From UHGV virus genome UHGV-0131581: DNA of 21,583 bases; one strand, 5' to 3'. The DNA comes from a virus. Of this stretch, positions 1-16,840 are shown piece after piece. Positions within the stretch are counted from its first letter, which is position 1, and each line of letters starts with the position of its first letter. The translations under genes were made by a program, and so were the position numbers. A model generated the notes under the pieces. That model did no database searches. It was given only the letters and a program-made list of their open reading frames with translations, and had not been told where the DNA came from.

Positions 1-2
1 CG

Positions 3-131
3 CTGAAACTCTTTCTCAAGCATGGGCGGGTCAAGGTCGAGCTGGGTATTTGCCGAGGTAAGGCCCTGCACGACAAGCGAGATTCCCTGAAGAAGAAAGC
101 CATGCGCCGCGACCTTGAAAGGGGCGCCTGA
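3..131 (+). CDS. 3' end of an SmpB-like (tmRNA-binding protein) gene, 5'-truncated by the window edge
   Basis: Frame starting at nt 3 is open to TGA at 129-131 and translates ...[40 protein letters not shown]. The G-x-x-x-GK-x-x-HDKR-x-x-(L/I)K pattern and basic tail match the SmpB C-terminus as I recall it for E. coli (…[25 protein letters not shown]…). From memory only. Confidence 0.4.
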
Positions 132-144
132 TTTATGGTATAAT
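115..144 (+). promoter_or_regulatory. sigma70-type promoter with extended -10 (TTGAAA, 18-nt spacer, TGgTATAAT)
   Basis: TTGAAA at 115-120 and TGGTATAAT at 136-144, overlapping the stop of the upstream ORF; a GGAG Shine-Dalgarno lies about 12 nt before ATG 183. Confidence 0.5.
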
Positions 145-182
145 GCCGAAACATATCCAATACAGAGGAGTAAGATAAGACT

Positions 183-1193
183 ATGTCGATGATGAAAGGT
201 TTCTCGAACGCGTTTCGGATTCCGGAGCTGCGAAAGAAAATTCTGATTACGCTCGGACTCGTGTTCGTGTGCCGCCTCGTGTCGCAGATTCCGACCCCAG
301 GCGTTGACTGGCGTGCCCTTCAGCAGGTGATTGAGACGGCGCGGCAGAATTCTGCCGGTGGCGGGTTGATTGACTGGCTTAGCGTCTTTACTGGTGGTGC
401 TCTCGGGCAGTGCGCAATTGGCTTTCTGTCCATCTGGCCTTACATCTCGGCGCAGATCGTGATTCAGCTTCTTTCGTCTGTCATTCCGTCGCTTCAGAAG
501 TTGAAGAAGGATGGTGAATCTGGACGCCAGCAGCTTGCGCAGATTACACGTTATCTGACGATTGTGCTCTGCGTGGTTCAGTCGTGGGGCATTGCGACGA
601 TGCTCAGCCATCCGGGAGCTCTCGGTCAGGCCTTTGCGGGTGTGAATCTTGTCGTCAATCCTGGGCTTGGGTTCCATCTGATGACGGTCATTGGTATGAC
701 GTCTGCCGCGCTTTTTGTCATGTGGCTTGCTGATCAGATTACGACGTTTGGCGTTGGTAATGGTGCGTCTCTGATTATTATGGTTAACATCACGTCGCGC
801 CTTCCGGACGCATTGATTAGTGCCTGGGAACGTTACTTTGGTTTGGCCGGTGTTCAAGCCTCGGCTCCCATTGCTGAATTGCCCGTGCTGATTGGGTTCT
901 TCCTGCTCGTTGTAATGGGTACGGTGATGCTGACTCAGGGTGTGCGCACAATTGGATTATCGCTCCCGGATTGTTTATTGCTGAAGGCCACAAGGATAAC
1001 GTGCCTGGTAGTCGGTTTTGCTGTGAATGCGGTGCGCGTGAGTGGGACGTTCAGAAATGACCAGCATCTTATTTATCTGGGTATTGTCCGCAGGCCAGAT
1101 GCAACTAGCGGCATCAGAAACGTTTTACTCGATGGAGGCGTGCCAGTCAGCGGCACGCGCCGCGGAGAACGCACACTTCCTGTTTCAGGGTGA
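183..1193 (+). CDS. SecY-like translocon homolog; SecY homology covers about the first 255 residues (nt 183-950), C-terminal ~80 residues unrelated (truncated, fused or decayed)
   Basis: Translation carries SecY signature blocks: FTGGALGQCAIGFLSIWPYISAQIVIQLL, KKDGESGRQQLAQITRY, VMWLADQITTFGVGNGASLII (E. coli SecY: [67 protein letters not shown]). After about LTQGVR no frame shows convincing SecY similarity. ORF is 336 aa versus about 440 for SecY. Confidence 0.6.
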   Translation: MSMMKGFSNAFRIPELRKKILITLGLVFVCRLVSQIPTPGVDWRALQQVIETARQNSAGGGLIDWLSVFTGGALGQCAIGFLSIWPYISAQIVIQLLSSVIPSLQKLKKDGESGRQQLAQITRYLTIVLCVVQSWGIATMLSHPGALGQAFAGVNLVVNPGLGFHLMTVIGMTSAALFVMWLADQITTFGVGNGASLIIMVNITSRLPDALISAWERYFGLAGVQASAPIAELPVLIGFFLLVVMGTVMLTQGVRTIGLSLPDCLLLKATRITCLVVGFAVNAVRVSGTFRNDQHLIYLGIVRRPDATSGIRNVLLDGGVPVSGTRRGERTLPVSG

Positions 1194-1260
1194 CAAGCCC
1201 AACGATTCGGAGGTACGCGCTATCTGCTCACCTAAGCGACTTGGTAAACAGGAGAAGTGA
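1057..1260 (+). CDS. Small protein with N-terminal hydrophobic segment, overprinted on the 3' end of the SecY-like ORF
   Basis: ATG 1057 in the +1 frame relative to the SecY-like ORF; MTSILFIWVLSAGQMQLAAS looks like a signal or TM segment; stop TGA 1258-1260 abuts the next gene's RBS. No strong RBS; could be spurious. Confidence 0.3.
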   Translation: MTSILFIWVLSAGQMQLAASETFYSMEACQSAARAAENAHFLFQGDKPNDSEVRAICSPKRLGKQEK

Positions 1261-1262
1261 TT

Positions 1263-1442
1263 ATGGTACAGAGATACTTATTCCAGGGTGGTTTTGTAAC
1301 CCCGTGTGATGAAGGACACTGGGTCTTATATAACGATTATGTGAAACTAGAAGCCGAGTTACAGAAATACAAAGACCAGTTCCCGGATTACGTCGAGTGC
1401 GCGAACTGCGGATCAATTACACATGTGGAAGGGGTGGAGTGA
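1263..1442 (+). CDS. Small Cys-containing hypothetical protein (59 aa, possible zinc-ribbon)
   Basis: ATG 1263 preceded by AGGAGAAG (1250-1257); Cys at PCDEGH and CANCG; stop overlaps the next start (TGATG). Confidence 0.5.
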   Translation: MVQRYLFQGGFVTPCDEGHWVLYNDYVKLEAELQKYKDQFPDYVECANCGSITHVEGVE

Positions 1443-1735
1443 TGTCTCTTGCAACTGACATCCTGGAACGAAGCGGCCTTGCGCCGCTGTCACCGAGAGC
1501 TAAAACACAGATATACAAGCGTCGCCGTAATGCGCTGTACCCTGAGATTCAGGCCAGGCGCAAAGCTGTCCGCGCCTGCGGATTCCAGAACGGTAAGGCC
1601 GTGAATCTCGGTGAGTTCAAAACACAGGAACGTGCGGCTATAGCTAATCGGCTATTTAATTACTGGAAATCGCTGGGATACGATGATATTCCAACGAAAC
1701 CGCAGAGACGACAATACATCTGGCGTCATAAATAA
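1442..1735 (+). CDS. Hypothetical basic protein (98 aa)
   Basis: ATG 1442 overlaps the upstream stop by 1 nt (translational coupling); Arg/Lys-rich. The track's longer ORF from 1397 is treated as an N-terminal over-extension. Confidence 0.5.
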   Translation: MSLATDILERSGLAPLSPRAKTQIYKRRRNALYPEIQARRKAVRACGFQNGKAVNLGEFKTQERAAIANRLFNYWKSLGYDDIPTKPQRRQYIWRHK

Positions 1736-1765
1736 ACCGTTATTAAGATAATTCCTAACCGTGCT

Positions 1766-1805
1766 ATCCTCCAGTTACTGCATACTTAATACGCACCTGG
1801 AGGAT
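1766..1805 (+). promoter_or_regulatory. Stem-loop sequestering the holin Shine-Dalgarno
   Basis: Perfect 9-bp inverted repeat ATCCTCCAG (1766-1774) / CTGGAGGAT (1797-1805) with a 22-nt loop; the 3' arm contains GGAGGA, the RBS for the TTG start at 1811. Confidence 0.5.
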
Positions 1806-1810
1806 TCATC

Positions 1811-2119
1811 TTGGATAAATTTACTGAAACAGTGACAGGCTGGCTTCTCGCCGCCGCGCTAGCCGGAGGGGTTATCGGACTACGACAACATAAGTCTGTT
1901 ATTTCCGGCCCTATCGACGGATTCTGCTTTATCGCAACTGGCTTCACCTGCGCCGTATTTGGTGCACCTCTCGCAGCTCAATGGTTTGGCATCACGGGCG
2001 ACCGTGAAATCGCTGGCCTGGGCTTTATCATCGCTGTTCTCTGGATGCCTATCTATTCCCGTCTCTCCAGTATCGTTGCCGGAGAATACATCGCACGTCG
2101 AGGAGGCACAGATGAATGA
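1811..2119 (+). CDS. Holin-like membrane protein (102 aa, TTG start)
   Basis: Small protein with hydrophobic helices (WLLAAALAGGVIGL, FCFIATGFTCAVFGAPLAA, GLGFIIAVLWMPIY) and charged C-terminus, immediately upstream of the endolysin; GGAGGA RBS 7 nt before TTG. Confidence 0.55.
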   Translation: MDKFTETVTGWLLAAALAGGVIGLRQHKSVISGPIDGFCFIATGFTCAVFGAPLAAQWFGITGDREIAGLGFIIAVLWMPIYSRLSSIVAGEYIARRGGTDE

Positions 2120-2384
2120 GTTATTCTGGTTCGGCGGTATGCTGGCCATCGGGGGCACATCGCTATTTAATGTATATCACCCCAGCGTTGACGACGGGTT
2201 ATTCGGTCGTGTGCTCTATATCCTGACCGCTATCGTCTGCGCTGCCGGATGTATCCACCTGTTACAGGGCAGCATGTCATCGACGCTGCCTGAAACATTA
2301 ATCACATTAGTTGCGCTGCGTCAGATTCGTCAGGCGTGGCTGTCATACGGAGGACATAAGCGTGTCTCGAAATATTTCAGATAA
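2112..2384 (+). CDS. Second holin/antiholin-like membrane protein (90 aa, 2 predicted TM)
   Basis: ATG 2112 preceded by AGGAGG (2101-2106); hydrophobic segments FWFGGMLAIGGTSLF and VLYILTAIVCAAGCIHLL; overlaps both neighbours. The track ORF from 1959 is treated as an over-extension. Confidence 0.5.
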   Translation: MNELFWFGGMLAIGGTSLFNVYHPSVDDGLFGRVLYILTAIVCAAGCIHLLQGSMSSTLPETLITLVALRQIRQAWLSYGGHKRVSKYFR

Positions 2385-2850
2385 TGGGTTGCATTTCACC
2401 GCTGCATTTGAGGGATTCCGTGGAACTGCGTATCGTGCTACACCGAGCGAGAAGTACCTGACTATTGGGTACGGTCATTACGGGCCGGACGTGACTCCAG
2501 GCAAGACCATCACCCAAGGACAAGGCCTCCTGTTACTGAACCGTGATATGGCTAAGGCCGTAGCTGCGGTTGATGCGGCAGCACACCATTCATTGACACA
2601 GGCGCAGTTCGACGCCGTGTGCGACCTGGTCTATAACGCAGGTGCGGGTGTTATCGCGGCTACTACCGGCACCGGTAAGGCACTGCGCTCCGGTGATACC
2701 GCGACGTTACGGACCAAGCTGTCGCTGTTCATTAACCAGAACGGTAAACCATTACTTGGTCTGCGTCGCCGTACCGCTGGTCGCCTGGCACTGTTTGGCG
2801 GTAAACCGTGGCAAGAGGCGGAGGCTATTGGGCGCGCGGTGAAAGGTTGA
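2362..2850 (+). CDS. Endolysin, glycoside hydrolase family 24 (T4/P22-type lysozyme)
   Basis: GLHFTAAFEGFRGTAYRATPSEKYLTIGYGHYG and QFDAVCDLVYNAGAG ... RRRTAGRLALF are typical GH24 lysozyme blocks. Probable GTG start at 2362 with GGAGGA at 2349-2354; track start 2311 is less likely. Confidence 0.85.
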   Translation: MSRNISDNGLHFTAAFEGFRGTAYRATPSEKYLTIGYGHYGPDVTPGKTITQGQGLLLLNRDMAKAVAAVDAAAHHSLTQAQFDAVCDLVYNAGAGVIAATTGTGKALRSGDTATLRTKLSLFINQNGKPLLGLRRRTAGRLALFGGKPWQEAEAIGRAVKG

Positions 2851-2914
2851 CACCTAAGACCAATCTGACGATACTTAAATCACCTCCTGTTCCATCCCTC
2901 TACTCTCCAGTTTT

Positions 2915-2948
2915 ATCCCGGCCCTGACCCAGCCGGGATTTTTTTTAT
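2915..2948 (+). terminator. Rho-independent terminator after the endolysin gene
   Basis: ATCCCGGC (2915-2922), 9-nt loop, GCCGGGAT (2932-2939), then T8. Confidence 0.7.
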
Positions 2949-2968
2949 CTATTTTCTGTAATGACTAG

Positions 2969-2997
2969 TTGACTATTACTCTTACACCAATTATATT
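2969..2997 (+). promoter_or_regulatory. sigma70-type promoter (TTGACT, 17-nt spacer, TATATT) driving the small-ORF cluster
   Basis: TTGACT at 2969-2974 and TATATT at 2992-2997. Confidence 0.55.
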
Positions 2998-3104
2998 TAC
3001 TTCATCGATAACGAGAACGGAGTAGAGAAGATGAGTAACTTCCATAACGAACATGTGATGCAGTTCTACCGCAATAATCTGAAAACTAAAGGAGTGTTTG
3101 GAAA

Positions 3105-3254
3105 ATGAAAATCACAGATATCGAGGCATTCGAAGACGCACAACTGATGGCACGTATTGCCGTTAGTAACCTGGGTGGAAACATTCCTGCGGAGTGGTTC
3201 TGGTCCGCAGCGATGAAGGCGCTTAAAGCAGCTTATGCAGGAGAGAAGAAATGA
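3105..3254 (+). CDS. Small hypothetical protein (49 aa)
   Basis: ATG 3105 preceded by AAAGGAG; translates [49 protein letters not shown]; stop overlaps next start (ATGA). Below the ORF-track length cutoff. A 25-codon ORF (3031-3108) upstream is also coupled by ATGA. Confidence 0.45.
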
Positions 3255-3409
3255 GCGAACAAGGCCCAGCAAGCCAGCCATTACGTGTAGGCCTTAAAGT
3301 CAACCACACCCCGTTCCCGACACGCGAGGAACTAATGAAACGTAACAGTTTCCCGGGGCCGGACAAGAACAAGTATCTCAATCGCATGTGGGGAGAGCGT
3401 AAAGAATGA
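3251..3409 (+). CDS. Small hypothetical protein (52 aa)
   Basis: ATG 3251 overlapping the upstream stop; translates [52 protein letters not shown]; stop overlaps ATG 3406 (ATGA). Confidence 0.4.
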   Translation: MSEQGPASQPLRVGLKVNHTPFPTREELMKRNSFPGPDKNKYLNRMWGERKE

Positions 3410-3603
3410 CTGACCGTGAATACGAAAAGATGATGGTAGAGGCCGTTAACGGCGGCGTAGACATCGGTAACGTGATGCACGTCCTGAATACTAAAATCGC
3501 GGTAGCTGAACAAATGGTGGAGTCGCTTTACGAGACACGCCGTGAACTTATCAACCGCTTCAACCTGAACAAAGTCCCGGGCGATGGATATGAAAGCGCC
3601 TGA
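3406..3603 (+). CDS. Small hypothetical protein (65 aa)
   Basis: Track ORF; ATGA coupling with the upstream gene; same strand and spacing as the neighbouring small genes. Confidence 0.5.
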   Translation: MTDREYEKMMVEAVNGGVDIGNVMHVLNTKIAVAEQMVESLYETRRELINRFNLNKVPGDGYESA

Positions 3604-3772
3604 ACCAGTAGTTATCGATGGCGTCCTGTGGAAACCCTACTCGGTTAACCACATCGACGCCGACGGAAAGAGGTTCAGCTTCTACATTTTTGCAATTAGC
3701 CGTGAGCACGCCGCCTGTGTGGTCGACGATATACGAGAAACGGCGTGGCTTGGTGACGAGATAGTGGGGTGA
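3584..3772 (+). CDS. Small hypothetical protein (62 aa)
   Basis: Track ORF overlapping the 3' end of the previous gene; part of the coupled small-gene run. Confidence 0.45.
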   Translation: MDMKAPEPVVIDGVLWKPYSVNHIDADGKRFSFYIFAISREHAACVVDDIRETAWLGDEIVG

Positions 3773-3776
3773 GAGT

Positions 3777-4058
3777 ATGGCACGTACTGTTTCCGCGAGA
3801 TTCACTGATATTGAATCCGCTATAGAAGAAGCCGTTTATTGTAGATTTTGCAACCCCTCCGCGGTACATAACTACGGAGTTATTGTTAAATATGGCAAGT
3901 TTGAGGTTAGAAGGGTGCGCGCCGACCGTCCATACGAGTTTTTATGGACAACAGAAAGCCTCATCCCGCGGTGCCACATTTACACAAGCGGTGTACATAC
4001 TATTTTTGTAGACCTTAACAAGAAAGATATTACCGTCACTAAAGGAGAGACAAATTGA
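3777..4058 (+). CDS. Small hypothetical protein (93 aa)
   Basis: Track ORF; GAGAG just upstream of ATG 3777; stop overlaps next start. Confidence 0.5.
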   Translation: MARTVSARFTDIESAIEEAVYCRFCNPSAVHNYGVIVKYGKFEVRRVRADRPYEFLWTTESLIPRCHIYTSGVHTIFVDLNKKDITVTKGETN

Positions 4059-4291
4059 TTACCAGCATCCCTAAACTGATTGAAAAGTACGGAAATATGT
4101 CGGAGACTTGCCGACAAACCGGTATCTGCGAGATGACGATTGCGAAGTACAGCAAAGACGTTGATTGCGAGCGCCACGTAATTTATAACAACCGTCTGAT
4201 GACGCACGTTAAGACAAGCCCGGTGTTATTCACGCGCCGGGGTATCACTAAAACTGAGCAACGCATTGCTAAAGAGGAGAGCAGGGAATGA
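4055..4291 (+). CDS. Small putative DNA-binding protein (78 aa, HTH-like segment)
   Basis: SETCRQTGICEMTIAKY resembles a helix-turn-helix recognition unit; coupled to both neighbours. Confidence 0.45.
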   Translation: MITSIPKLIEKYGNMSETCRQTGICEMTIAKYSKDVDCERHVIYNNRLMTHVKTSPVLFTRRGITKTEQRIAKEESRE

Positions 4292-4470
4292 TTGAGTTTT
4301 TGAAGGCACTTGATGCCGCGGGCAACCTGGTATTTTGGCTGGCCTTTTTCGTTGTGCTGATAAAACAACCGACTTTGTTTAACAGTCTTCCTGGCCATCT
4401 GTGGTGGCCTATGTTTTTAGGCATGGGGGTAACAGGAGTGGCAGGCGTCCTGTTGTGGTTTTTCAAATGA
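4288..4470 (+). CDS. Small membrane protein (60 aa, two hydrophobic helices)
   Basis: LVFWLAFFVVLI and WWPMFLGMGVTGVAGVLLWFF; GGAGAGCAGGGA upstream of ATG 4288. Confidence 0.5.
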   Translation: MIEFLKALDAAGNLVFWLAFFVVLIKQPTLFNSLPGHLWWPMFLGMGVTGVAGVLLWFFK

Positions 4471-4582
4471 GACTACTAATCATACCAAACGCCTGGGCTA
4501 TTGCCGTAGCTAACGACCACTACGGCGGCGATGGTAAAAGAGCACCTCGACACGGCCTATATAATTGATTGGAGAGCGAGAG

Positions 4583-4798
4583 ATGAAAGATATGGAACCC
4601 TTCAAGTGGAACCGCTCCGGAATACCACAACACGGCGAATACCCGGAACCGTATAAAAAGGTCGACGTGATAACAAGAAGCAAAGGACGAGATAAAAGTA
4701 TTAACTCCGGACAAGCGTACTGGAGCGGGTATAAGTGGCAGGGGCTTGATGGCTTTAAGATAGGATATTCCCGTGTAATACGCTGGATTGAATATTGA
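4583..4798 (+). CDS. Hypothetical protein (71 aa)
   Basis: ATG 4583 preceded by GGAGAG (4571-4576); the track's TTG 4565 start is treated as an over-extension. Confidence 0.45.
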   Translation: MKDMEPFKWNRSGIPQHGEYPEPYKKVDVITRSKGRDKSINSGQAYWSGYKWQGLDGFKIGYSRVIRWIEY

Positions 4799-4801
4799 TA
4801 C

Positions 4802-4825
4802 AAGCCCTCTACGGAGGGCTTTTCT
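4802..4825 (+). terminator. Rho-independent terminator
   Basis: AAGCCCTC (4802-4809), loop TACG, GAGGGCTT (4814-4821), then TTCT. Confidence 0.65.
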
Positions 4826-4879
4826 GTACATCCCGCCCAATCCCCTTATATAATCCATTTAGACGCGTAGGGCGCGTCT
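4825..4879 (+). promoter_or_regulatory. Promoter-like element (TGTACA, 18 nt, TATAAT at 4849-4854) followed by a perfect 7-bp hairpin (4861-4879) upstream of the terminase small subunit gene
   Basis: -10 TATAAT read directly; AGACGCG-TAGGG-CGCGTCT palindrome at 4861-4879. Confidence 0.4.
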
Positions 4880-4919
4880 GGTGCGCTCTGATGGTCAGAC
4901 GCATATGCAAGGGGATTCT

Positions 4920-5465
4920 ATGAAGCTGAAACTTAAGCAGCCATCTCCAGAGGTGGTGCAAGCTGCACATGAAGAAGCTGTTAGCGCAAACCGTCGCCGT
5001 AAACGGCCACGCGGTAAACAGAGCCTTTATCAATCATCCCGTAATTCCGCTGCGTTGTGGGACCCGGACTATTGTGACGAATTGATTCGTTTCTTCGACC
5101 GCACGTCATGGGAACTTGTGCCTACGTCTAAGGGCGACGAACGCCCGCTGATTCAGGATAAGCCACCGTCACTGGCCCGCTTCGCCTTACATATCGGCGT
5201 CACTATCCCGATTATCAAGCTGTGGCTGCGCGAGATTCCCGCATTTGCAGAAGCCTATGAAACGGCGCAGGCACTGGAAGAGGCATACTTCACTGAGACA
5301 GGCGCGGTGGGCATATCCGCTACGTTTGCCGCTGCGAAGCTAGGTCTTGGCAAAGAGAAACCGGTTGAATCCACCGAAGAAACAGCACCGACTGAGATTA
5401 TTTTCAGTGTCGCAGAGCCTGTAGGTAAAATCGTAACAACGAACATGGGCGAGGTAGAGGAATGA
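4920..5465 (+). CDS. Terminase small subunit (putative)
   Basis: Immediately upstream of and ATGA-coupled to the large terminase gene; basic N-terminus and HTH-like PSLARFALHIGVTIPIIKLWLREIPAFAEAYE; AAGGGGA RBS before ATG 4920. Track GTG start 4881 is possible but less likely. Confidence 0.5.
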   Translation: MKLKLKQPSPEVVQAAHEEAVSANRRRKRPRGKQSLYQSSRNSAALWDPDYCDELIRFFDRTSWELVPTSKGDERPLIQDKPPSLARFALHIGVTIPIIKLWLREIPAFAEAYETAQALEEAYFTETGAVGISATFAAAKLGLGKEKPVESTEETAPTEIIFSVAEPVGKIVTTNMGEVEE

Positions 5466-6712
5466 GTATTCAGCTATCCGCCCCGCAGGCACTGTTCCTG
5501 AATTGCGATAACAAATACAAGGCCTATGTCGGTGGCTTCGGCAGCGGCAAGACATTTGTTGGCTGTCTGGACCTGCTTACGTTTATGCTCAAGCACCCCG
5601 GTACGCGCCTGGGCTACTTCGGCCCGACCTATCCAGCTATCCGCGACATCTTCTACCCGACATTCGAGGAGGCGGCGAACCTGCTCGGGCTCGATGTGCT
5701 GGTTAAATCCGGCGACAAAGAAGTCGTGGTTACTCGTGGTAAGACGGTGCTCGGTACGGTTATCTGCCGTTCGATGGATAACCCAGGTTCTATCGTTGGT
5801 TTCAAAATCGCGGCTGCGGTCGTGGATGAACTCGATGTATTGAGTCGTGAGAAAGCTGAGCTGGCATGGAACAAAATTGTTGCCCGTATGCGTCTTGTTA
5901 TTCCTGGCGTAACTAACCACATCTCTGTAACCACGACGCCGGAAGGGTTCAAGTTCGTCTTTGCCAAGTTCAAAGATAACCCGACACCGAGTTACTCAAT
6001 GGTGCAGGCTTCAACACACGAGAATGCGCGATTCCTGCCGCCGGATTACATTAGCTCGCTGACAGAGACTTACCCGGCGCAACTGATTAACGCGTATCTG
6101 AATGGTGAGTTCGTCAACCTGACCTCCGGCAGCGTGTATTACGCATACGACCGCCACAAACATCGCAGCAAAGAGACAATTCAACCGGGCGACACGCTGT
6201 ACATCGGCCAGGACTTCAACGTTACTAAGAACGCCAGCGCCGTATATGTGCAACGTAAAGACGGCTGGCACGCGGTGGCAGAACTGAAAGGACTGTTCGA
6301 TACGCCAGATACTGTGCGCGTAATTACCGAGAAGTGGAAGTCGCAAGGCCACCGCATCGTCGTTTATCCCGACGCCAGCGGCAAGAACCGCAAAACCAAC
6401 TCGGCATCAATCTCCGATATTGCATTACTCCAGCAGGCCGGCTTCGATGTTCGCGCTAAATCCGCCAACCCCCCGGTTAAAGACCGTGTTTTAGCCGTGA
6501 ATACCGCACTGGAAAAAGGTAAGCTGTGGGTTAACGACCACTTATGCCCTGAGATAGCTAAGACGCTGGAGCAGCAGGCATACGACGATAACGGGGAGCC
6601 ATCCAAAGATGGCATCATCGACCATATGGCGGATGCTCTCGGCTATCCTGTAGTTTACGAGATGCCAGTGGTCAAACCAGTAATCAACATCCCGGTGACT
6701 TTCGCACTTTAA
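5462..6712 (+). CDS. Terminase large subunit
   Basis: Walker A-type motif VGGFGSGKTF near the N-terminus; 416 aa; positioned directly before the portal gene. Confidence 0.85.
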   Translation: MSIQLSAPQALFLNCDNKYKAYVGGFGSGKTFVGCLDLLTFMLKHPGTRLGYFGPTYPAIRDIFYPTFEEAANLLGLDVLVKSGDKEVVVTRGKTVLGTVICRSMDNPGSIVGFKIAAAVVDELDVLSREKAELAWNKIVARMRLVIPGVTNHISVTTTPEGFKFVFAKFKDNPTPSYSMVQASTHENARFLPPDYISSLTETYPAQLINAYLNGEFVNLTSGSVYYAYDRHKHRSKETIQPGDTLYIGQDFNVTKNASAVYVQRKDGWHAVAELKGLFDTPDTVRVITEKWKSQGHRIVVYPDASGKNRKTNSASISDIALLQQAGFDVRAKSANPPVKDRVLAVNTALEKGKLWVNDHLCPEIAKTLEQQAYDDNGEPSKDGIIDHMADALGYPVVYEMPVVKPVINIPVTFAL

Positions 6713-6724
6713 GAGGATTATTCA

Positions 6725-8206
6725 ATGTTAACTATGAACGGTCAGAATCAGGGTGTTAAGACAAAACACCGGGAATGGCTGCATCACTTCAATAAATGGC
6801 AGAAGGTACGCCACGCGCTGGAAGGCGACCTTATTCGCTATCTGCGCAACGTCGGGAAGAACGAGCCGGACCAGAAATACGCAGACCAGCGCCAGGAAGA
6901 ATATGAGAACGGCGCTATCTGCTACAACTTCACGAAACGTACCCTGGCTGGGATGGTCGGCAGTGTCATGCGCAAAGACCCTGAACAGATTATTCCTACT
7001 GAAATGGAGTACCTGTTACGCAATGCCGACGGTTCTGGTGTCGGGTTGTGGCAGCACGCGCAGGATACGCTGATGGAGATTGACTCGGTAGGCCGTGGCG
7101 GGTTGCTGGTTGATGCGCCAGAGACCGCCGCGGCAACGGCAGCCGAACAGAACGCTGGATTATTAAACCCGGTCATCGCATTCTATACCGCAGAGAACAT
7201 CATCAACTGGCGACTGACACGCGTAGGTTCAGTGAACCGTGTGACTATGGTCGTGCTGCGTGAGGCATGGGAATACTCAGAACCGGGTGCGGAGTTCGAA
7301 ACCAAGTTTGGCGAGCAATACCGCGTCCTTGACCTGATTGACGGTCGTTATCGCCAGCGAATATATCGTTTCGATGCCGAAGGCGGCGCACAGGATGAAG
7401 TGATCGAAATATTCCCGGAACTCGGAGAACAGTTGCGCGGCAAAATCCCCTTCACGTTTATCGGGGCGAGCAACAACGACGCTACTATTGACGATGCGCC
7501 TTTGCTGCCGTTGGCTGAACTTAATATCGGACATTTCCGCAACAGCGCGGACAATGAGGAGTCCAGCTTCGTTGTAGGCCAACCCACTCTGTTCATCGCC
7601 CCAGGCGAGAACATGAGCATGGAACAGTGGAAAGAAGCCAACCCTCACGGCGTACGCATGGGGTCGCGCTCGGGTCACAACATCGGTTACGGCGGCAATG
7701 CGTTTCTGGTTCAGGCGGAGGAGAACAACCTCGCTAAGCAGAACATGCTGGATAAAGAGAATCAGGCAATCCAGATTGGCGCGCAGCTTATCACCCCGAC
7801 GCAGCAAATCACCGCTGAATCGGCCAGACTGCAACGCGGCGCCGACACGTCTGTTATGGCGACAATCGCTCGTAATGTAAGCATGGCGTATACAGATGCG
7901 TTGCGCTGGGTTGCTGCGATGCTTGGATTGCGTGAAGACACCGAGATTGAGTTCAAACTGAACATGGAGTTCTTCCTGCAACCGATGACCGCGCAGGACA
8001 GAGCGCAGTGGATGGCAGATATTAACGCGGGCCTGTTACCGGCCACCGCTTATTACGCGGCATTGCGCAAGGCCGGTGTAACTGACTGGACAGATGAGGA
8101 CATTCAGAATGCTATTGAGGATGTCCCTTTGCCGTTAGGTGCTGTTACTCAGGTAGCAGGAGAGATTCCGCAGGCGGCGCAGCAACAAGACGCCGCTCAG
8201 CAGTAA
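6725..8206 (+). CDS. Portal protein
   Basis: 493-aa protein directly downstream of the large terminase and upstream of the head-morphogenesis gene; AAGAGGA RBS; acidic Gln-rich C-terminus. Assigned by size and synteny, not motif. Confidence 0.7.
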   Translation: MLTMNGQNQGVKTKHREWLHHFNKWQKVRHALEGDLIRYLRNVGKNEPDQKYADQRQEEYENGAICYNFTKRTLAGMVGSVMRKDPEQIIPTEMEYLLRNADGSGVGLWQHAQDTLMEIDSVGRGGLLVDAPETAAATAAEQNAGLLNPVIAFYTAENIINWRLTRVGSVNRVTMVVLREAWEYSEPGAEFETKFGEQYRVLDLIDGRYRQRIYRFDAEGGAQDEVIEIFPELGEQLRGKIPFTFIGASNNDATIDDAPLLPLAELNIGHFRNSADNEESSFVVGQPTLFIAPGENMSMEQWKEANPHGVRMGSRSGHNIGYGGNAFLVQAEENNLAKQNMLDKENQAIQIGAQLITPTQQITAESARLQRGADTSVMATIARNVSMAYTDALRWVAAMLGLREDTEIEFKLNMEFFLQPMTAQDRAQWMADINAGLLPATAYYAALRKAGVTDWTDEDIQNAIEDVPLPLGAVTQVAGEIPQAAQQQDAAQQ

Positions 8207-8242
8207 GTATGCTTATAGCTCCGAAAGGGGCTTTCTTATAGT

Positions 8243-9319
8243 ATGCTATTAACTTTAGCGCCACAGGGTTTATCTATGAGCTTACTTACATCCCTAATCA
8301 GCCACCAGATATGGCTGCAACGCACCGCATCCGGTGAAGTGAAAGACCTTGCGCCGTTTCTTCAGGAAATGCGGGACGAAATCAAACGGCAGGTGCTGTT
8401 ATTCGGTGACGACGGGCGAAGCACCGCGCGACTAAATAAACTGTTACGCGACCTTGAAGAAGCATTAACAGGACTTACTGGTGACTGGCGGACAAAGCTG
8501 ATAGAAGACCTCAAAGAACTGGCAGCGTACGAGGCTGAGTGGAACGTAAAGACTCTGACCACTAACGTAAATGGGGAATTTGTTACGCCTACTGCCGAGC
8601 AAGTGTGGGCCGCCGCCGAGTTTCAACCTCTGGCGTTGAACGACAAGCCTGTTGACTTCACTAAGCTGATGGACGGCTGGGGTGAAACAGAAGTCGCGCG
8701 CCTTGTAACCGGCGTTAAGATGGGTTTCGTACAAGGTCAAACCACACGGCAGATTGTTAAAAGCGTAGTCGGCGCGGGCGGACTGGCCGACATCTCTGAG
8801 CGCAACGCAGCTACGGTAATACGTACTGCGCTGTCTCACGTGTCCAACGAAGCCCGTAACGAGACGTACCGCCAGAACGACGACATCATCGAGAAGTACG
8901 AGTGGGTGTCAACGCTGGACAGCCGTACCAGTACGATTTGCAGAGCCAGAGACGGAATGACATGGGAAATTGGTAAAGGGCCGATGCCTCCAGCCCATCC
9001 GAATTGTCGGTCGTGCACGGCCCCGGTAATCAGTTCAGAGTTCGACTTCCTCGATAAAGGCGCAAAACGTGCGGCTAAGGGTGCGGACGGCGGTACTCAG
9101 GTAAGCGCGGACACCACTTACTACGAGTTCCTGAAACAACAACCGGCATGGTTTATTGATGAAGCTCTCGGCCCGGTTCGCGGTAAGATTTTCCGCAACA
9201 GCGGTATATCGCCGGAAGAGTTTCGCGTAATATCTGTAGATGGTTTCGGGAATCCGCTGACACTTAAGCAGATGGCGGAACTCGATAAACGTGTTGCTGA
9301 TTATCTGAAAGGGGATTAA
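8243..9319 (+). CDS. Head morphogenesis protein (Mu F / SPP1 gp7-like minor head protein)
   Basis: ATVIRTALSHVSNEARNETYRQ ... WVSTLDSRTSTICRARDGMTW ... PPAHPNCRSCT matches the Mu-F-like domain pattern; position after portal. Start could be ATG 8243 or ATG 8276. Confidence 0.75.
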   Translation: MLLTLAPQGLSMSLLTSLISHQIWLQRTASGEVKDLAPFLQEMRDEIKRQVLLFGDDGRSTARLNKLLRDLEEALTGLTGDWRTKLIEDLKELAAYEAEWNVKTLTTNVNGEFVTPTAEQVWAAAEFQPLALNDKPVDFTKLMDGWGETEVARLVTGVKMGFVQGQTTRQIVKSVVGAGGLADISERNAATVIRTALSHVSNEARNETYRQNDDIIEKYEWVSTLDSRTSTICRARDGMTWEIGKGPMPPAHPNCRSCTAPVISSEFDFLDKGAKRAAKGADGGTQVSADTTYYEFLKQQPAWFIDEALGPVRGKIFRNSGISPEEFRVISVDGFGNPLTLKQMAELDKRVADYLKGD

Positions 9320-9780
9320 TGATGGGCTTTTTCAAAGTAACTGACGTACCGTCGCGTCGCGTAGTCCAGTACGCCCGCGTGTCTGGCTCCGGCGAGAACG
9401 TGGTGTTTATTGAAGACGAAAGTGTACTTGGCACACCGGTAGATGATATGCCGTTTGCGGATAAAACCGGTATTGCGCTACCGGCCGCGGGTATGCTTTA
9501 TGAGATTCCGTATCTGGCGGACGCTGGCGACGTGTATTTCTCTGCGCAACCGCAGGACGCTGAACTGGTAGACGGAAGCGCGGTAATCACGGTTGAAGTT
9601 AAGGCGGGTAAAGCACCGTATGCTCTGACCTGGTACAAAGACGGAAAGGAAGTGGTTAATGCGCCAGAAGAGGCTTTGTCTCTGACGGTTAATGCGGTAG
9701 GTGAATACTTCGTGAAAGTTACTGATGCCGGTGGTGTAGAGGCCGTGAGTAAAGCGGCGAATGTCACTAAGCCAGAATAA
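9319..9780 (+). CDS. Structural protein with C-terminal Ig-like domain
   Basis: YALTWYKDGKEVVN ... GEYFVKVTDAGG resembles an I-set/Big-type Ig fold; ATGA-coupled to the head morphogenesis gene. Confidence 0.5.
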   Translation: MMGFFKVTDVPSRRVVQYARVSGSGENVVFIEDESVLGTPVDDMPFADKTGIALPAAGMLYEIPYLADAGDVYFSAQPQDAELVDGSAVITVEVKAGKAPYALTWYKDGKEVVNAPEEALSLTVNAVGEYFVKVTDAGGVEAVSKAANVTKPE

Positions 9781-9784
9781 TGCG

Positions 9785-9805
9785 AAGCCCCGGAAGGGGC
9801 TTTTT
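9785..9805 (+). terminator. Rho-independent terminator
   Basis: AAGCCCC-GGAA-GGGGCTT followed by TTT. Confidence 0.75.
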
Positions 9806-9842
9806 AGTGCCTGTGATTATTCCAGTTATTCCTCTCAATTGT

Positions 9843-9900
9843 AAATGTTGGAATAAACTATTCGAATAGTTGACTTTTCACTAAAAATGTGCTAAGCTCC
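9843..9900 (+). promoter_or_regulatory. Promoter region with conserved upstream motifs (ATGTTGGAATAA and GAATAGTTGAC) and TTGACT -35-like element
   Basis: TTGACT at 9871-9876; the two motifs recur at 10611-10640 upstream of the scaffold gene. Confidence 0.45.
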
Positions 9901-10078
9901 ACCTGAGCTTGTGAAGTATGAACAAGCGACCGCGGCGCGGGCAGGTAACGGAGCGGGACGTAAGTCCTGAGTGTAGTTACGCTGACGCGTTCGGAAGGGC
10001 CATACTCTATTGCTTGTGTAAAAAGTAACTGGTTTACTGAGATTACGCCGTTTCTATGTTTAAATGATAAGGACTAGC

Positions 10079-10108
10079 GCCCCGCTTTAAGGCGGGGCTT
10101 TACTTATC
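10079..10108 (+). terminator. Terminator- or attenuator-like hairpin upstream of the spanin genes
   Basis: GCCCCGC (10079-10085), 6-nt loop, GCGGGGC (10092-10098), then TTTACTTAT. Confidence 0.4.
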
Positions 10109-10122
10109 GAGAAAGGAGAAAC

Positions 10123-10509
10123 ATGAATCTTAAAGCAACTGTCGTAGCGGGAGCATGTTTCATCATCCTGTTATATGCGCACGGCTACTATCAATACCGC
10201 ATCGGCTGGAACGAAGGCCGGGCGAATCTCGTTTCGCAGCAACAACAGAAAGCGCAGGCTGAGTTAGCAAAGAAAACACAACGGCAGCAGCAGGACGAAT
10301 CGAAGGCCGCAGCCGCTGATAACGAAGGCAAGACGAAATCAGAGGTGATTACCCGTGAAGTCGTTAAGTACATTAAAACGCCTGGTCGCAGCGTGTGCAC
10401 TTTTGACCCTGAGCGCGTGCAGCTCAAGTCCCGAGCCGTCGCGAATGCCAATTCCATCCCCGGATACGACGATGATGCAGTCGCCGTGCAAACTGGCCCC
10501 GCCAAGTAG
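10123..10509 (+). CDS. i-spanin (Rz-like inner-membrane spanin subunit)
   Basis: N-terminal TM helix (VVAGACFIILLYAHGYY), Gln/Ala/Lys-rich coiled-coil region, AAGGAG RBS, and a lipoprotein gene in its +1 frame. Confidence 0.65.
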   Translation: MNLKATVVAGACFIILLYAHGYYQYRIGWNEGRANLVSQQQQKAQAELAKKTQRQQQDESKAAAADNEGKTKSEVITREVVKYIKTPGRSVCTFDPERVQLKSRAVANANSIPGYDDDAVAVQTGPAK

Positions 10510-10618
10510 CGACGCCGATGAGGATTTGGCTATCGACGTTCAGAACGCAGAATGCGTACGGCAACTGAGGCTGAAAGTGTTCATGTTGCAGGATTACGTG
10601 AGGAATATTCTGGAATAG
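10355..10618 (+). CDS. o-spanin (Rz1-like outer-membrane lipoprotein), overlapping the i-spanin gene in the +1 frame
   Basis: MKSLSTLKRLVAACALLTLSAC: signal peptide with lipobox L-S-A-C, followed by a Pro-rich mature region (SSSPEPSRMPIPSPD); extends past the Rz stop (overlapped architecture). Confidence 0.65.
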   Translation: MKSLSTLKRLVAACALLTLSACSSSPEPSRMPIPSPDTTMMQSPCKLAPPSSDADEDLAIDVQNAECVRQLRLKVFMLQDYVRNILE

Positions 10619-10674
10619 TTGCCTTGCATGTTGGAATAATTTATTCTTGACATGTAAATCCGGGTGGCCCGGAT
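10611..10674 (+). promoter_or_regulatory. Second copy of the conserved motif pair plus TTGACA and an 8-bp hairpin, upstream of the scaffold gene
   Basis: GAATAGTTGCC (10613-10623) and ATGTTGGAATAA (10629-10640); TTGACA 10647-10652; AATCCGGG-TGG-CCCGGATT at 10656-10674. Confidence 0.45.
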
Positions 10675-10700
10675 TCCAACGTCCAGGGGACATACTGACT

Positions 10701-11402
10701 ATGAATCGTTTTTTACGTTATCCGTTCCAGGAAGAAGCTGGGGTAGAAGATAAAGCTGGTGGCGGTGACGCGCCGAAAATGTTCACCGCTGAAGAAGTTC
10801 AGGTGCTGATTGAGAAAGAAGTTGCCGGGCTTAAGGCCAATCAGGAAGCATTGCTGGCGGAGAAGAAAGAAGCCGCTCGCAAAGCAAAAGAAGCCGAAGA
10901 AGAACGGCAGCGCGCGCATCAGGAGGCGTTAAAAGCCGCTGGTAAGATGGACGAGTTCGAAAAAACGATTCGTAGCCAGTATGACCCGGTGCTAGCCGAG
11001 AAAGATGGTCGCATCTCCAGAATGGCGGAGCGCATCCTCGGCAGCGAACGTAAAGCGGTGCTAGGCTCTTTCGCGGGCGACTTTATTACCCCGGAAGCGG
11101 TGGACATTCTTGCACCGTTCGTTAGGACTGAGTTTGAAGGCGATGATGTGGTTACTAAGTTTGTTGGTGCAGACGGTAACGTAATCACGACTGACCCTGA
11201 ACAGTTCCGCAAATACCTGCGCGAACACAAAGCGTTTTCGCATTTGATTAAAGCAAATGCAGCTTCCGGCGGCGGGGCTTCCGGTGGCAAAGGCGGCGGG
11301 GCCGCACCAGCGTTTAAAGACATGAGTGAATCGGAGCGTTTGGCTCTGTATAAATCGAACCCTGCCGAATTTGAACGGCAACTTAAAGCCCTGAGGAAAT
11401 AA
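10701..11402 (+). CDS. Scaffolding protein (putative)
   Basis: Acidic, Ala/Glu/Lys-rich coiled-coil protein directly upstream of the major capsid gene; ATG 10701 preferred over the track's TTG 10647. Confidence 0.55.
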   Translation: MNRFLRYPFQEEAGVEDKAGGGDAPKMFTAEEVQVLIEKEVAGLKANQEALLAEKKEAARKAKEAEEERQRAHQEALKAAGKMDEFEKTIRSQYDPVLAEKDGRISRMAERILGSERKAVLGSFAGDFITPEAVDILAPFVRTEFEGDDVVTKFVGADGNVITTDPEQFRKYLREHKAFSHLIKANAASGGGASGGKGGGAAPAFKDMSESERLALYKSNPAEFERQLKALRK

Positions 11403-11404
11403 TA

Positions 11405-12454
11405 ATGGCAATTACCACTATCGGCGATATCGTAACTGGCAACATCCCGGTCCTTGCGTCTTATATGACAGAGGACCCGGTAGAAAAAACCGCGTTCTTC
11501 CAGTCTGGTATTCTTACCCCGACTCCATACGCTGCCGAGATTGCCCGAGGCCCGTCCAACGTCGCTAATATTCCTTTCTGGAAAGCGATTGACACCTCTA
11601 TCGAGCCTAACTACTCGAACGACGTATACCAGGACATCGCTACCCCGCGTAATGTGCAGACCGGTGAGATGATGGCGCGCGTTGCGTACCTGAACGAAGG
11701 CTTTGGCCAGGCAGACCTGACGGTTGAACTGACCAGCGAGAATCCGCTGCAATCCGTGGCTTCTCGTCTTGATAACTTCTGGCAGCGCCAGGCACAACGT
11801 CGTCTTATTGCTACCGCGCTCGGTCTGTACAACGACAACGTAGCCGCTACCGATGCTTACCACGAGCAGAACGACATGGTTATCGACGTGTCTGCTACTC
11901 TGGGCTTTGACGCAGGCGCATTCATCGACGCTACCCAGACTATGGGTGATGCGCTGATGGACAACGGCGGTGAAGTGCTGGGCGCTATTGCGATGCACAG
12001 CTTCGTTTATGCTCAGGCGCGTAAGCAGCAGCTTATCGACTTCATCAAAGACGCCGACAACGACACCCTGTTCGCCACCTACCAGGGTTACCGTGTGATT
12101 GTTGATGACAGCATGACCGTGGTCGGAACTGGCCCGAGCCGCAAGTTCATCTCTATCATCTTCGGCAACGGTGCTATCGGTTACGGTGAAGGCAATCCGT
12201 CTAACCCGCTGGAATACGAGCGTGAAGCGTCTCGTGGTAACGGTGGTGGCGTTGAAACCCTGTGGACCCGCAAGACTTGGTTGCTGCATCCTCTGGGCTA
12301 CAGCTTCACCAGCGCGGTAATCACCGGTAACGGCACCGAGACTACCCCACGCTCTGCCTCCTGGCAGGACCTGGCGAACGCCTCCAACTGGAACCGCGTG
12401 GTTGACCGTAAGCACGTACCGATTGCCTTCCTGGTAACTGGTGTAGGTGCTTAA
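11405..12454 (+). CDS. Major capsid protein
   Basis: 349-aa protein immediately after the scaffold gene and followed by a strong terminator, the usual high-expression capsid arrangement. Assigned by synteny. Confidence 0.7.
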   Translation: MAITTIGDIVTGNIPVLASYMTEDPVEKTAFFQSGILTPTPYAAEIARGPSNVANIPFWKAIDTSIEPNYSNDVYQDIATPRNVQTGEMMARVAYLNEGFGQADLTVELTSENPLQSVASRLDNFWQRQAQRRLIATALGLYNDNVAATDAYHEQNDMVIDVSATLGFDAGAFIDATQTMGDALMDNGGEVLGAIAMHSFVYAQARKQQLIDFIKDADNDTLFATYQGYRVIVDDSMTVVGTGPSRKFISIIFGNGAIGYGEGNPSNPLEYEREASRGNGGGVETLWTRKTWLLHPLGYSFTSAVITGNGTETTPRSASWQDLANASNWNRVVDRKHVPIAFLVTGVGA

Positions 12455-12470
12455 GGTTAAGTTATAATCG

Positions 12471-12494
12471 AGAGGGACTTCGGTCCCTCTTTTC
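12471..12494 (+). terminator. Rho-independent terminator after the major capsid gene
   Basis: AGAGGGAC (12471-12478), loop TTCG, GTCCCTCT (12483-12490), then TTTC. Confidence 0.75.
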
Positions 12495-12513
12495 ATTTAC
12501 TAAGAGGTAAATT

Positions 12514-12768: not shown

Positions 12769-12778
12769 GGGGATTAAA

Positions 12779-13132: not shown

Positions 13133-13168
13133 TGCAACGGCCCTTCGGGGCCGTAATAAGGAAAGGTC

Positions 13169-13348: not shown

Positions 13349-13351
13349 TTT

Positions 13352-13864: not shown

Positions 13865-13866
13865 AA

Positions 13867-16814: not shown

Positions 16815-16816
16815 GG

Positions 16817-16840
16817 AAAAGGCCCCGAAAGGGGCCTTTT
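16817..16840. terminator. Bidirectional rho-independent terminator between convergent genes
   Basis: AAAAGGCCCC-GAAA-GGGGCCTTTT: a GC stem with GNRA-type loop flanked by A-run and T-run, so it can terminate from either direction. Confidence 0.8.

What the first reader, a model, noticed from the sequence alone, without database searches (positions are those of the whole stretch)
1..182. SmpB-like gene end followed by a near-consensus promoter, with no tmRNA gene
The window opens with what looks like the C-terminal tail of SmpB, then a TTGAAA / TGgTATAAT promoter. In enterobacteria smpB is followed by ssrA (tmRNA), a classic integration site for phages and islands. Here the promoter instead drives the SecY-like ORF. 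This could mark a host-phage junction, a phage-borne SmpB-like gene, or a rearranged ssrA-type locus.
Basis: partly seen in the sequence, partly recalled or inferred. Interest (0 to 1): 0.5.

Follow-up and report, generated by a model that had tools for sequence, protein, structure and literature searches.

The report
Gut-bacterium gene fragment mis-joined to coliphage
The SmpB tail, the strong promoter and the SecY start are an ordinary piece of chromosome from an uncultured gut bacterium (Kiritimatiellia) that has been stuck, almost certainly by an assembly or library artefact, onto half the genome of a lytic E. coli phage.

Summary
Bases 3-131 encode the last 42 residues of SmpB. A TTGAAA-18-TGgTATAAT promoter sits at 115-144. 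SecY starts at 183, and the window holds no tmRNA.

None of the three biological readings holds. Bases 1-948 are 98.2% identical to a human-gut Kiritimatiellia MAG, where full-length smpB, the same promoter and full-length secY lie in the same order. The promoter is conserved upstream of secY in about 75 of 78 related species, so it is secY's own promoter. No tmRNA lies within 4 kb of secY in 47 native loci.

From base 938 onward the window is a Kagunavirus, a lytic E. coli siphovirus. Ten independent contigs carry this phage at 97-100% identity, most at 100%. In each, identity starts at exactly 938, phage DNA lies upstream, and no bacterial DNA is present.

The two parts share an 11-nt word (938-948). 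The join cuts secY at codon 255 and cuts a phage gene, out of frame. The fusion protein is a singleton among 15 billion proteins.

The window is the whole SPAdes contig. I conclude it is a chimeric contig. Its components are already known, and interest is low.

The parts
3..131 (+). 3' end of smpB (last 42 codons plus TGA stop), cut by the contig end; Kiritimatiellia origin
   Evidence: Translation. Pfam SmpB E 3.6e-11, profile positions 100-139 of 143. Identical to the C-terminus of the 150-aa SmpB of L004, which passes the NCBIfam equivalog cut-off.
115..144 (+). sigma-70-type promoter of secY: -35 TTGAAA (115-120), 18-nt spacer, extended -10 TGgTATAAT (136-144). The -35 lies inside the last smpB codons (D-L-E-R-G).
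   Evidence: 11 of 12 matches, TG present. Conserved upstream of secY: 75 of 78 loci have a TG-extended -10, 59 have exact TATAAT, and 70 score at least 9 of 12, against 14 of 400 random 100-nt control segments. The -10 ends 33-53 nt before the ATG in most loci.
165..170 (+). Shine-Dalgarno-like GAGGAG, 12 nt before the secY ATG
   Evidence: Read from the sequence. A GGAG motif sits at the same place in nearly all related loci.
183..947 (+). secY codons 1-255, the N-terminal 55% of a 465-aa protein
   Evidence: TIGR00967 E 7e-56, profile positions 1-230 of 414. 98.2% DNA identity to L004 over window 1-948. Of 14 nt differences in secY, 13 are synonymous and one is V to I.
938..948 (.). Join: the 11-nt word GGGTGTGCGCA, shared by the bacterial secY and the phage gene. 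Bacterial identity ends at 948 and phage identity starts at 938.
   Evidence: The word occurs only once in the window.
949..1193 (+). 81-codon nonsense tail of the fusion ORF 183-1193: phage DNA read out of frame
   Evidence: The real phage ORF (L084 805-1236, frame 0) crosses the join intact in L084, and the secY frame is offset from it. The fusion protein is a singleton.
938..21583 (+). About half of a Kagunavirus genome, from a 5'-truncated small ORF through holins, endolysin, terminase, portal, head and tail genes to the middle of the tape-measure gene
   Evidence: 89-92% identity to Kagunavirus records, collinear with phage EF2-1 over 92% of the segment. 97-100% identity over 938-2000 (100% in most) to 10 other metagenome contigs.

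Best explanation
The contig is a chimera of two unrelated genomes that were both present in one gut-type metagenome.

Bases 1-948 are a fragment of the chromosome of an uncultured Kiritimatiellia bacterium. It holds the end of smpB, the native extended -10 sigma-70 promoter and Shine-Dalgarno site of secY, and the first 255 codons of secY. In that lineage secY is a stand-alone gene with its own strongly conserved promoter. In one large sub-lineage smpB happens to be its upstream neighbour, with the -35 hexamer embedded in the last smpB codons. ssrA lies elsewhere. The absence of a tmRNA gene after smpB is therefore normal there.

Bases 938-21583 are a lytic E. coli Kagunavirus.

The two pieces were joined at an 11-nt word they share by chance. 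The join was made either by the assembler, through overlap-based closing of two dead ends, or by a chimeric DNA molecule formed during library preparation. It was not made by biology.

What is shown: the identity and origin of both parts, the exact breakpoints, conservation of the promoter, the uniqueness of the join, and the existence of both parents intact elsewhere. What is inferred: that the join is artefactual, and which step produced it.
For: (1) Origin of the left part. Window 1-948 is 98.2% identical to L004 and 96.9% to L005, both Kiritimatiellia/Verrucomicrobiota MAGs from human gut. L004 carries full-length smpB, the same intergenic region, a full-length 465-aa secY and then yifB.

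(2) Native arrangement. smpB lies 50-94 nt upstream of secY in 27 of 80 species loci. The promoter is conserved in about 75 of 78 loci, whatever gene lies upstream. No tmRNA is found within 4 kb in 47 loci, and Rfam finds none in 5 loci.

(3) Origin of the right part. From 938/947 onward the window is Kagunavirus.

(4) Same phage elsewhere. Ten distinct contigs from ENA, JGI and Logan samples are 97-100% identical to window 938-2000 (100% in most). Three are near-complete at 43.3-43.6 kb. In all of them identity starts at exactly 938, with 530-3,675 nt of phage DNA upstream. None matches window 1-937.

(5) Overlap at the join. The breakpoints overlap by 11 nt. By my arithmetic, a homology-independent join would show at least 11 ambiguous bases with probability about 2e-6. 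The join was therefore overlap-driven.

(6) Damage done by the join. It truncates essential secY at codon 255 and truncates a phage ORF, out of frame, giving an 81-aa nonsense tail.

(7) No decay. The secY fragment shows 13 synonymous changes against 1 conservative change relative to L004, and 23 against 1 relative to L005.

(8) Uniqueness. The fusion protein is on one contig in one sample. It is a singleton 90% cluster among 15 billion proteins. The 40-mer across the join is absent from viral contigs.

(9) Known error class. The contig is a SPAdes NODE at about 12x coverage. Chimeric contigs are a documented error, more frequent with metaSPAdes than with MEGAHIT (PMC5610896).

(10) Host range. 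Kagunavirus phages are small E. coli siphoviruses with narrow, glycan-dependent host range (PMC11990801). No integrase is annotated in the closest complete genome.
Against: No reads or assembly graph were available, so I could not show directly that the join lacks read support.

An 11-nt overlap is shorter than the k-mers of a de Bruijn assembler (21 or more). A plain k-mer collision therefore cannot explain the join. It needs either SPAdes' short-overlap gap closing or scaffold joining, or chimeric reads. My recollection that those SPAdes steps have a minimum overlap of 10 comes from its configuration files and was not verified here (searches gave nothing).

Microhomology of this length is also what real illegitimate recombination uses.
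Confidence: 0.9

Rival explanations
1. The join is real. A Kagunavirus genome, or a defective or transducing variant, captured at least 0.95 kb of Kiritimatiellia chromosome by microhomology-mediated illegitimate recombination at the 11-nt word.
For: The 11-nt microhomology at the breakpoint is in the range used by illegitimate recombination. The contig has no Ns across the join. Headful-type phages tolerate some foreign DNA (my own knowledge).
Against: The donor is from a different phylum than the phage's enterobacterial hosts. Ten other contigs of the same strain have phage DNA upstream. The fusion is a singleton. It is out of frame and destroys both genes. The fragment shows no divergence beyond strain-level synonymous changes. 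The left end of the putative insert is not in the contig.
Confidence: 0.04
2. This is an artefact, but made in the tube rather than in the computer. A chimeric DNA fragment arose by PCR template switching, ligation or MDA at the 11-nt microhomology. It produced real junction reads that the assembler followed faithfully. This is a sub-variant of the best explanation.
For: The overlap (11 nt) is shorter than the assembler's k, so junction-spanning k-mers must either exist in reads or have been created by an overlap-joining step. Low coverage (about 12x) lets a few chimeric reads bridge two dead ends.
Against: Assemblers normally prune low-coverage chimeric links. The library protocol is unknown. 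This cannot be separated from an in-silico join without the reads.
Confidence: 0.3
3. Prophage boundary: a temperate phage integrated beside smpB at an ssrA-type site in its host.
For: smpB/ssrA is a known integration hot spot (my own knowledge). Several phage records carry smpB at their extreme ends, for example StauST398-5 at 10-453.
Against: The join lies inside secY, not at a tRNA or tmRNA gene. No integrase is present. The phage belongs to a lytic E. coli genus. The flanking bacterium is not an enterobacterium. Integration would disrupt an essential gene.
Confidence: 0.005
4. Phage-encoded auxiliary SmpB and SecY genes, expressed from a strong early promoter.
For: There is a strong promoter and an intact N-terminal SecY reading frame.
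Against: Bases 1-946 match no phage record. They have 98% nucleotide identity to a bacterial chromosome with the same gene order. SecY is truncated to 255 of 465 aa with a nonsense tail. The promoter is the bacterial secY promoter, conserved across the class.
Confidence: 0.005

Closest known systems
Chimeric (inter-genome) contigs in short-read metagenome assemblies
   Same: Two parents are each attested intact elsewhere. The breakpoints coincide in a short shared word. The join is unique to one low-coverage SPAdes contig and has no biological coherence. The error class is documented (PMC5610896).
   Different: Most described chimeras join related genomes through long shared repeats. Here the parents are a bacterium and a phage of another phylum's host, and they share only 11 nt.
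SmpB (SsrA-binding protein, PF01668 / TIGR00086) and the smpB-ssrA neighbourhood of enterobacteria
   Same: The fragment is a true SmpB C-terminus.
   Different: In this Kiritimatiellia lineage the downstream neighbour is secY, not ssrA. No tmRNA gene lies within 4 kb.
SecY (TIGR00967), usually the penultimate part of the spc ribosomal-protein operon (my own knowledge)
   Same: There is clear SecY homology, and the full-length orthologue passes the equivalog cut-off.
   Different: Here secY is monocistronic-looking, with its own conserved promoter and variable upstream neighbours. In the window it is cut at codon 255.
Extended -10 sigma-70 promoters (TGnTATAAT)
   Same: There are 11 of 12 consensus matches with TG. 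Position, spacing and motif are conserved across 70-75 of 78 species.
   Different: Nothing unusual. The -35 overlaps the end of the upstream coding sequence.
Kagunavirus (Guernseyvirinae), e.g. Escherichia phage EF2-1, vB_EcoS_GZMU_E2010, LF7074P1
   Same: 89-92% nucleotide identity and collinear gene order over the 20.6-kb phage part.
   Different: Only about half the genome is present. Its first ORF is truncated by the join.

Membership tests
SmpB (PF01668 / TIGR00086) | Significant match to the family profile | tested here: met
   Pfam E 3.6e-11 (43.6 bits against a cut-off of 27), profile positions 100-139 of 143. NCBIfam E about 1e-10, below the whole-protein cut-off only because just 42 aa are present.
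SmpB (PF01668 / TIGR00086) | Complete gene (about 150 aa) present | tested here: not met
   The contig starts inside the gene. The complete 150-aa orthologue, with an identical C-terminus, is in L004 and passes the equivalog cut-offs.
SecY (TIGR00967) | Profile match over the full 10-TM protein | tested here: not met
   Only profile positions 1-230 of 414 match, at 189.9 bits against a cut-off of 253.6. The full-length L004 orthologue scores 358.4 bits. The window copy is truncated at codon 255 by the join.
sigma-70 extended -10 promoter | -35 and -10 hexamers with 16-18 nt spacing and TG one base upstream of the -10 hexamer | tested here: met
   TTGAAA-18-TGgTATAAT, 11 of 12 matches.
sigma-70 extended -10 promoter | Conservation of the motif at a fixed distance from the gene across species | tested here: met
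   75 of 78 loci have TG and 59 have exact TATAAT. 70 score at least 9 of 12, against 14 of 400 controls. The -10 lies 33-53 nt from the ATG in most loci.
sigma-70 extended -10 promoter | Mapped transcription start | not testable with these tools
   This needs 5' RACE or dRNA-seq in a Kiritimatiellia.
Prophage or island integrated at an smpB/ssrA-type site | tRNA or tmRNA gene at the junction | tested here: not met
   ARAGORN and Rfam find none in the window or in the native loci. The junction lies inside secY.
Prophage or island integrated at an smpB/ssrA-type site | Integrase or recombinase in the element | tested here: not met
   There is no integrase domain among the called genes of bases 1-11193. 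None is among the 72 annotated features of the closest complete relative EF2-1. The second half of this particular phage is not in the contig.
Prophage or island integrated at an smpB/ssrA-type site | Direct att repeats at both ends | not testable with these tools
   The contig ends inside the tape-measure gene. The 11-mer at the join occurs only once in the window.
Prophage or island integrated at an smpB/ssrA-type site | The flanking chromosome belongs to a host of the phage | tested here: not met
   The flank is Kiritimatiellia. The phage's relatives were all isolated on Escherichia, Salmonella and other Enterobacteriaceae.
Chimeric assembly contig | Each side continues differently, and coherently, in independent assemblies | tested here: met
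   The bacterial side continues as secY in L004, L005 and about 80 loci. The phage side continues upstream as phage DNA in 10 contigs.
Chimeric assembly contig | The join is not reproduced in any other data set | tested here: met
   One contig in one sample. Singleton cluster. No hit in viral contigs. The only metagenome-contig hit to the 24-mer is a pure phage contig.
Chimeric assembly contig | Lack of read or mate support and a coverage step at the join | not testable with these tools
   Reads and the assembly graph of ERZ1745275 are not available here.
Kagunavirus | High nucleotide identity and synteny with genus members | tested here: met
   89-92% identity over 77-92% of the 20.6-kb segment and collinear gene order. 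Whole-genome identity cannot be computed from half a genome.

The most novel reading that the evidence does not exclude
A lytic E. coli Kagunavirus molecule really carries about 1 kb or more of Kiritimatiellia chromosome (smpB end, promoter, 5' secY), acquired by microhomology-mediated illegitimate recombination at an 11-nt word. That would be a snapshot of cross-phylum DNA capture by a virulent phage in the gut.
Probability: 0.03. Interest if true: 0.55.

Novelty: already known. Interest (0 to 1): 0.07.

Why it matters
The biological importance is small. SmpB, SecY and an extended -10 promoter are textbook elements, and their order here is simply how one gut Kiritimatiellia lineage arranges them.

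The practical value is as a caution. A contig like this could be mis-scored in three ways. It could be read as a phage carrying host-derived auxiliary genes (SecY, SmpB). It could be read as a prophage boundary. It could be used as host-linkage evidence that assigns a coliphage to Kiritimatiellia.

The case also shows a cheap way to expose such chimeras: look up the exact flanking proteins in other assemblies and compare where identity starts.

Tried and rejected
Upstream extension was impossible. The window is the whole contig.

I searched for tmRNA and tRNA with ARAGORN and Rfam, both at gathering score and at E<=1. Nothing was found.

The terminator scan of bases 1-2500 found none.

My first estimate of the join was a 2-nt overlap (CA at 947-948), from comparison with phages about 91% identical. 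I replaced it with an 11-nt overlap once a 99.9%-identical phage contig was found.

The 24-mer searched in metagenome contigs began inside the shared word. It was therefore not diagnostic of the join and hit a pure phage contig. That hit turned out to be the useful control.

The literature search for the SPAdes minimum-overlap parameter gave nothing usable. That point rests on my memory only. A search for the sample accessions in papers found nothing.

I rejected a plain k-mer collision as the cause, because 11 nt is shorter than any SPAdes k.

I rejected the 525-aa antisense ORF (10919-12496) as a gene. It is explained by codon bias.

I did not use the large protein searches, structure prediction or RNA-model tools. 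The homology was unambiguous without them.

Full report
**1. What is in the sequence**

Frame 3 of bases 3-128 reads [42 protein letters not shown], followed by TGA at 129-131. This matches the C-terminal part of the SmpB profile: Pfam PF01668 at E 3.6e-11, positions 100-139 of 143, and NCBIfam SmpB equivalogs at E about 1e-10.

A sigma-70-type promoter is present. It has TTGAAA at 115-120, an 18-nt spacer, TG at 136-137 and TATAAT at 139-144, which is 11 of 12 matches with an extended -10.

GAGGAG at 165-170 precedes an ATG at 183. That ATG opens a 336-codon ORF whose first 255 residues are SecY (TIGR00967 E 7e-56, profile positions 1-230 of 414).

ARAGORN and Rfam find no tRNA, tmRNA or other RNA family in the window. 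A permissive Rfam search of bases 1-1500 at E<=1 also finds nothing.

**2. The window is a whole contig**

An exact look-up of the 336-aa product returns a single record: ENA assembly ERZ1745275, NODE_450_length_21583_cov_11.81. This is the window itself.

**3. Where the two parts come from**

Against 50,697 phage records, nothing matches bases 1-946, even with 11-base words. From 947 onward the window is 89-92% identical to Kagunavirus phages of E. coli, E. fergusonii, Raoultella and Salmonella. It is collinear with phage EF2-1 through small early ORFs, holins, endolysin, terminase, portal, head and tail genes. The contig ends inside the tape-measure gene.

A scan of one genome per bacterial species with the SecY N-terminus returned 80 loci. 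Most are labelled Kiritimatiellia, Lentisphaerae or Verrucomicrobia MAGs from human, ruminant, horse and chicken gut. Window 1-948 is 98.2% identical in DNA to L004, a Hadza-gut Kiritimatiellaeota MAG, and 96.9% identical to L005.

In L004 the same stretch sits in an ordinary chromosome:
- a complete 150-aa smpB (NCBIfam equivalog, 185.6 bits against a cut-off of 130);
- a 52-nt spacer with the same promoter;
- a complete 465-aa secY (358.4 bits against a cut-off of 253.6);
- a YifB-family Mg-chelatase-like ATPase.

**4. The smpB-promoter-secY arrangement is native**

smpB lies 50-94 nt upstream of secY in 27 of the 80 species loci, with SmpB identity going down to about 72%. In the other loci the upstream neighbour is highly variable, and no ribosomal-protein operon is evident.

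The promoter is there all the same. Of 78 loci with at least 100 nt upstream of secY:
- 75 have a TG-extended -10;
- 59 have an exact TATAAT;
- 70 score at least 9 of 12, against 14 of 400 random 100-nt control segments;
- the -10 ends 33-53 nt before the ATG in most.

In 23 of the 24 scored smpB-adjacent loci the -35 is TTGAAA. It is embedded in the last smpB codons...D-L-E-R-G.

No tmRNA gene lies within 4 kb of secY in 47 loci by ARAGORN, or in 5 loci by Rfam. In this lineage ssrA is simply not next to smpB, and nothing has been rearranged.

**5. The join**

Comparison with phages about 91% identical placed the start of phage homology at 947. A search for the junction 24-mer in metagenome contigs hit OBCN01001382 (L084). 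This is a pure phage contig, 99.92% identical to window 938-3514, with 1,113 nt of phage DNA upstream.

Bacterial identity therefore runs to 948 and phage identity starts at 938. The two parents share the 11-nt word GGGTGTGCGCA, and it occurs only once in the window.

By my arithmetic, a join made without regard to homology would show at least 11 ambiguous bases with probability about 2e-6. Shared 11-mers between a 1.4-kb gene and a 42-kb phage are expected by chance, roughly 28 of them. The join was therefore made at a fortuitous shared word by an overlap-dependent process.

**6. The join has no biological coherence**

It cuts secY, an essential gene, after codon 255 of 465. It removes the 5' part of a small phage ORF that is intact in L084 (805-1236). 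The two frames are offset, so the last 81 codons of the 'SecY-like ORF' are phage DNA read out of frame.

The secY fragment differs from L004 at 14 positions (13 synonymous, one V to I) and from L005 at 24 positions (23 synonymous). This is the pattern of a functioning gene in a living bacterium, not of a decaying passenger.

**7. Both parents exist intact elsewhere; the join does not**

The two phage proteins immediately right of the join (1263-1442 and 1442-1735) occur with exactly the same sequence on 19-23 contigs from many ENA, JGI and Logan samples.

Ten distinct contigs among those fetched are 97-100% identical to window 938-2000 (100% in most). Three are near-complete at 43.3-43.6 kb. 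In every one, identity begins at exactly 938, with 530-3,675 nt of phage DNA upstream, and none matches window 1-937.

The fusion protein is on one contig in one sample. It forms a singleton 90%-identity cluster among about 15 billion proteins. The 40-mer spanning the join is absent from IMG/VR.

**8. Biology of the phage**

Kagunavirus phages are small (41-44 kb) siphoviruses isolated on E. coli. Their host range is narrow and depends on O-antigen or capsule (PMC11990801). The closest complete relative has 72 annotated features and no integrase. None of the genes called in the first 11 kb of the window has an integrase domain.

Integration of such a phage into a Kiritimatiellia chromosome, inside secY, is not credible. 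SmpB does occur in 68 phage records, and the best-scoring listed examples, such as StauST398-5 at 10-453, lie at a record end. This looks like host flank carried along with prophages. None of the 68 records is named as a Kagunavirus in the organism summary.

**9. Explanation**

The most likely account, at about 0.9, has two parts. Bases 1-948 are an ordinary Kiritimatiellia chromosomal fragment. It was joined artefactually to a Kagunavirus genome present in the same sample.

Chimeric contigs are a documented error of metagenome assemblers. In simulated viromes they made up under 5% of contigs of 10 kb or more, and they were more frequent with metaSPAdes than with MEGAHIT (PMC5610896).

Because 11 nt is shorter than any SPAdes k-mer, the join needs one of two things. 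One is the assembler's short-overlap closing of two dead ends; my recollection of a 10-nt minimum was not verified. The other is a few chimeric reads made by template switching or ligation during library preparation. I cannot tell these apart without the reads.

The only reading that would be of interest is a real phage molecule that captured Kiritimatiellia DNA by microhomology-mediated recombination. It is not formally excluded, and I put it at about 3-4%.

**10. Verdict**

But that boundary is at 938-948, it involves a non-host bacterium, and it is almost certainly artefactual. The phage-borne SmpB and rearranged ssrA locus readings are refuted. The components are already known, and interest is low.

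Noticed in passing
window 10919-12496 (-): A 525-aa ATG ORF lies antisense to the phage scaffold and coat genes. A 551-aa counterpart exists in phage EF2-1. It is explained by codon bias. The coat gene has 0 TTA, CTA or TCA codons in 350, against about 2% in other genes. In 336 of 1000 synonymous-codon shuffles the antisense stretch is as long or longer. The translation is low-complexity, so this is not a gene.
   Followed up: yes
L004-L083 (secY loci of gut and rumen Kiritimatiellia): In this class secY looks like a stand-alone gene with its own very strongly conserved extended -10 promoter and variable upstream neighbours. It is not part of a ribosomal-protein (spc-type) operon. In L004 it is followed by a yifB-family ATPase.
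   Followed up: partly
window 113-131 and 23 of the 24 scored smpB-adjacent loci: The -35 hexamer TTGAAA of the secY promoter is embedded in the conserved last codons of smpB (GAC CTT GAA AGG = D-L-E-R). One stretch therefore serves as both coding sequence and promoter element.
   Followed up: partly
window 145-182 and the same region of L004-L083: The secY 5' leader, between the -10 and the Shine-Dalgarno site, often contains an A/T-rich run with TTTCC or TTTTC about 10-20 nt after the -10. This could be a conserved leader element or just the start-site context. It was not analysed.
   Followed up: no
L007, L008, L010, L014, L032, L078: Contigs carrying this Kiritimatiellia-type secY (80-94% aa identity; L007, L008 and L014 also carry the smpB-secY pair) sit in genome bins labelled Barnesiella intestinihominis, Faecalibacterium sp., Gemmiger sp., Anaerovoracaceae, Muribaculaceae and Limosilactobacillus gorillae. 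These are probably mis-binned contigs in those 'cleanbin' MAGs.
   Followed up: no
window 938-2000; L084, L088, L091, L092, L095-L097, L102-L104: The same Kagunavirus strain, 100% identical over at least 1 kb, recurs in at least 10 contigs from unrelated ENA, JGI and Logan samples. Three of them are 43.3-43.6 kb near-complete genomes. This suggests a widespread gut or sewage coliphage lineage.
   Followed up: partly
window 1049-1057: Relative to phage GZMU_E2010, about 112 nt are missing here (L003 1786-1897). This shortens the small phage ORF that the join cuts. Many relatives only start matching at 1053-1057. It is a mosaic accessory-gene region.
   Followed up: no
phage records H31-H36 (e.g. 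KC595279.1 10-453; PV425441.1 1-444): Several deposited 'phage' records contain a full smpB at their very first bases. This is most simply host flank included with prophage sequences integrated near smpB/ssrA.
   Followed up: no
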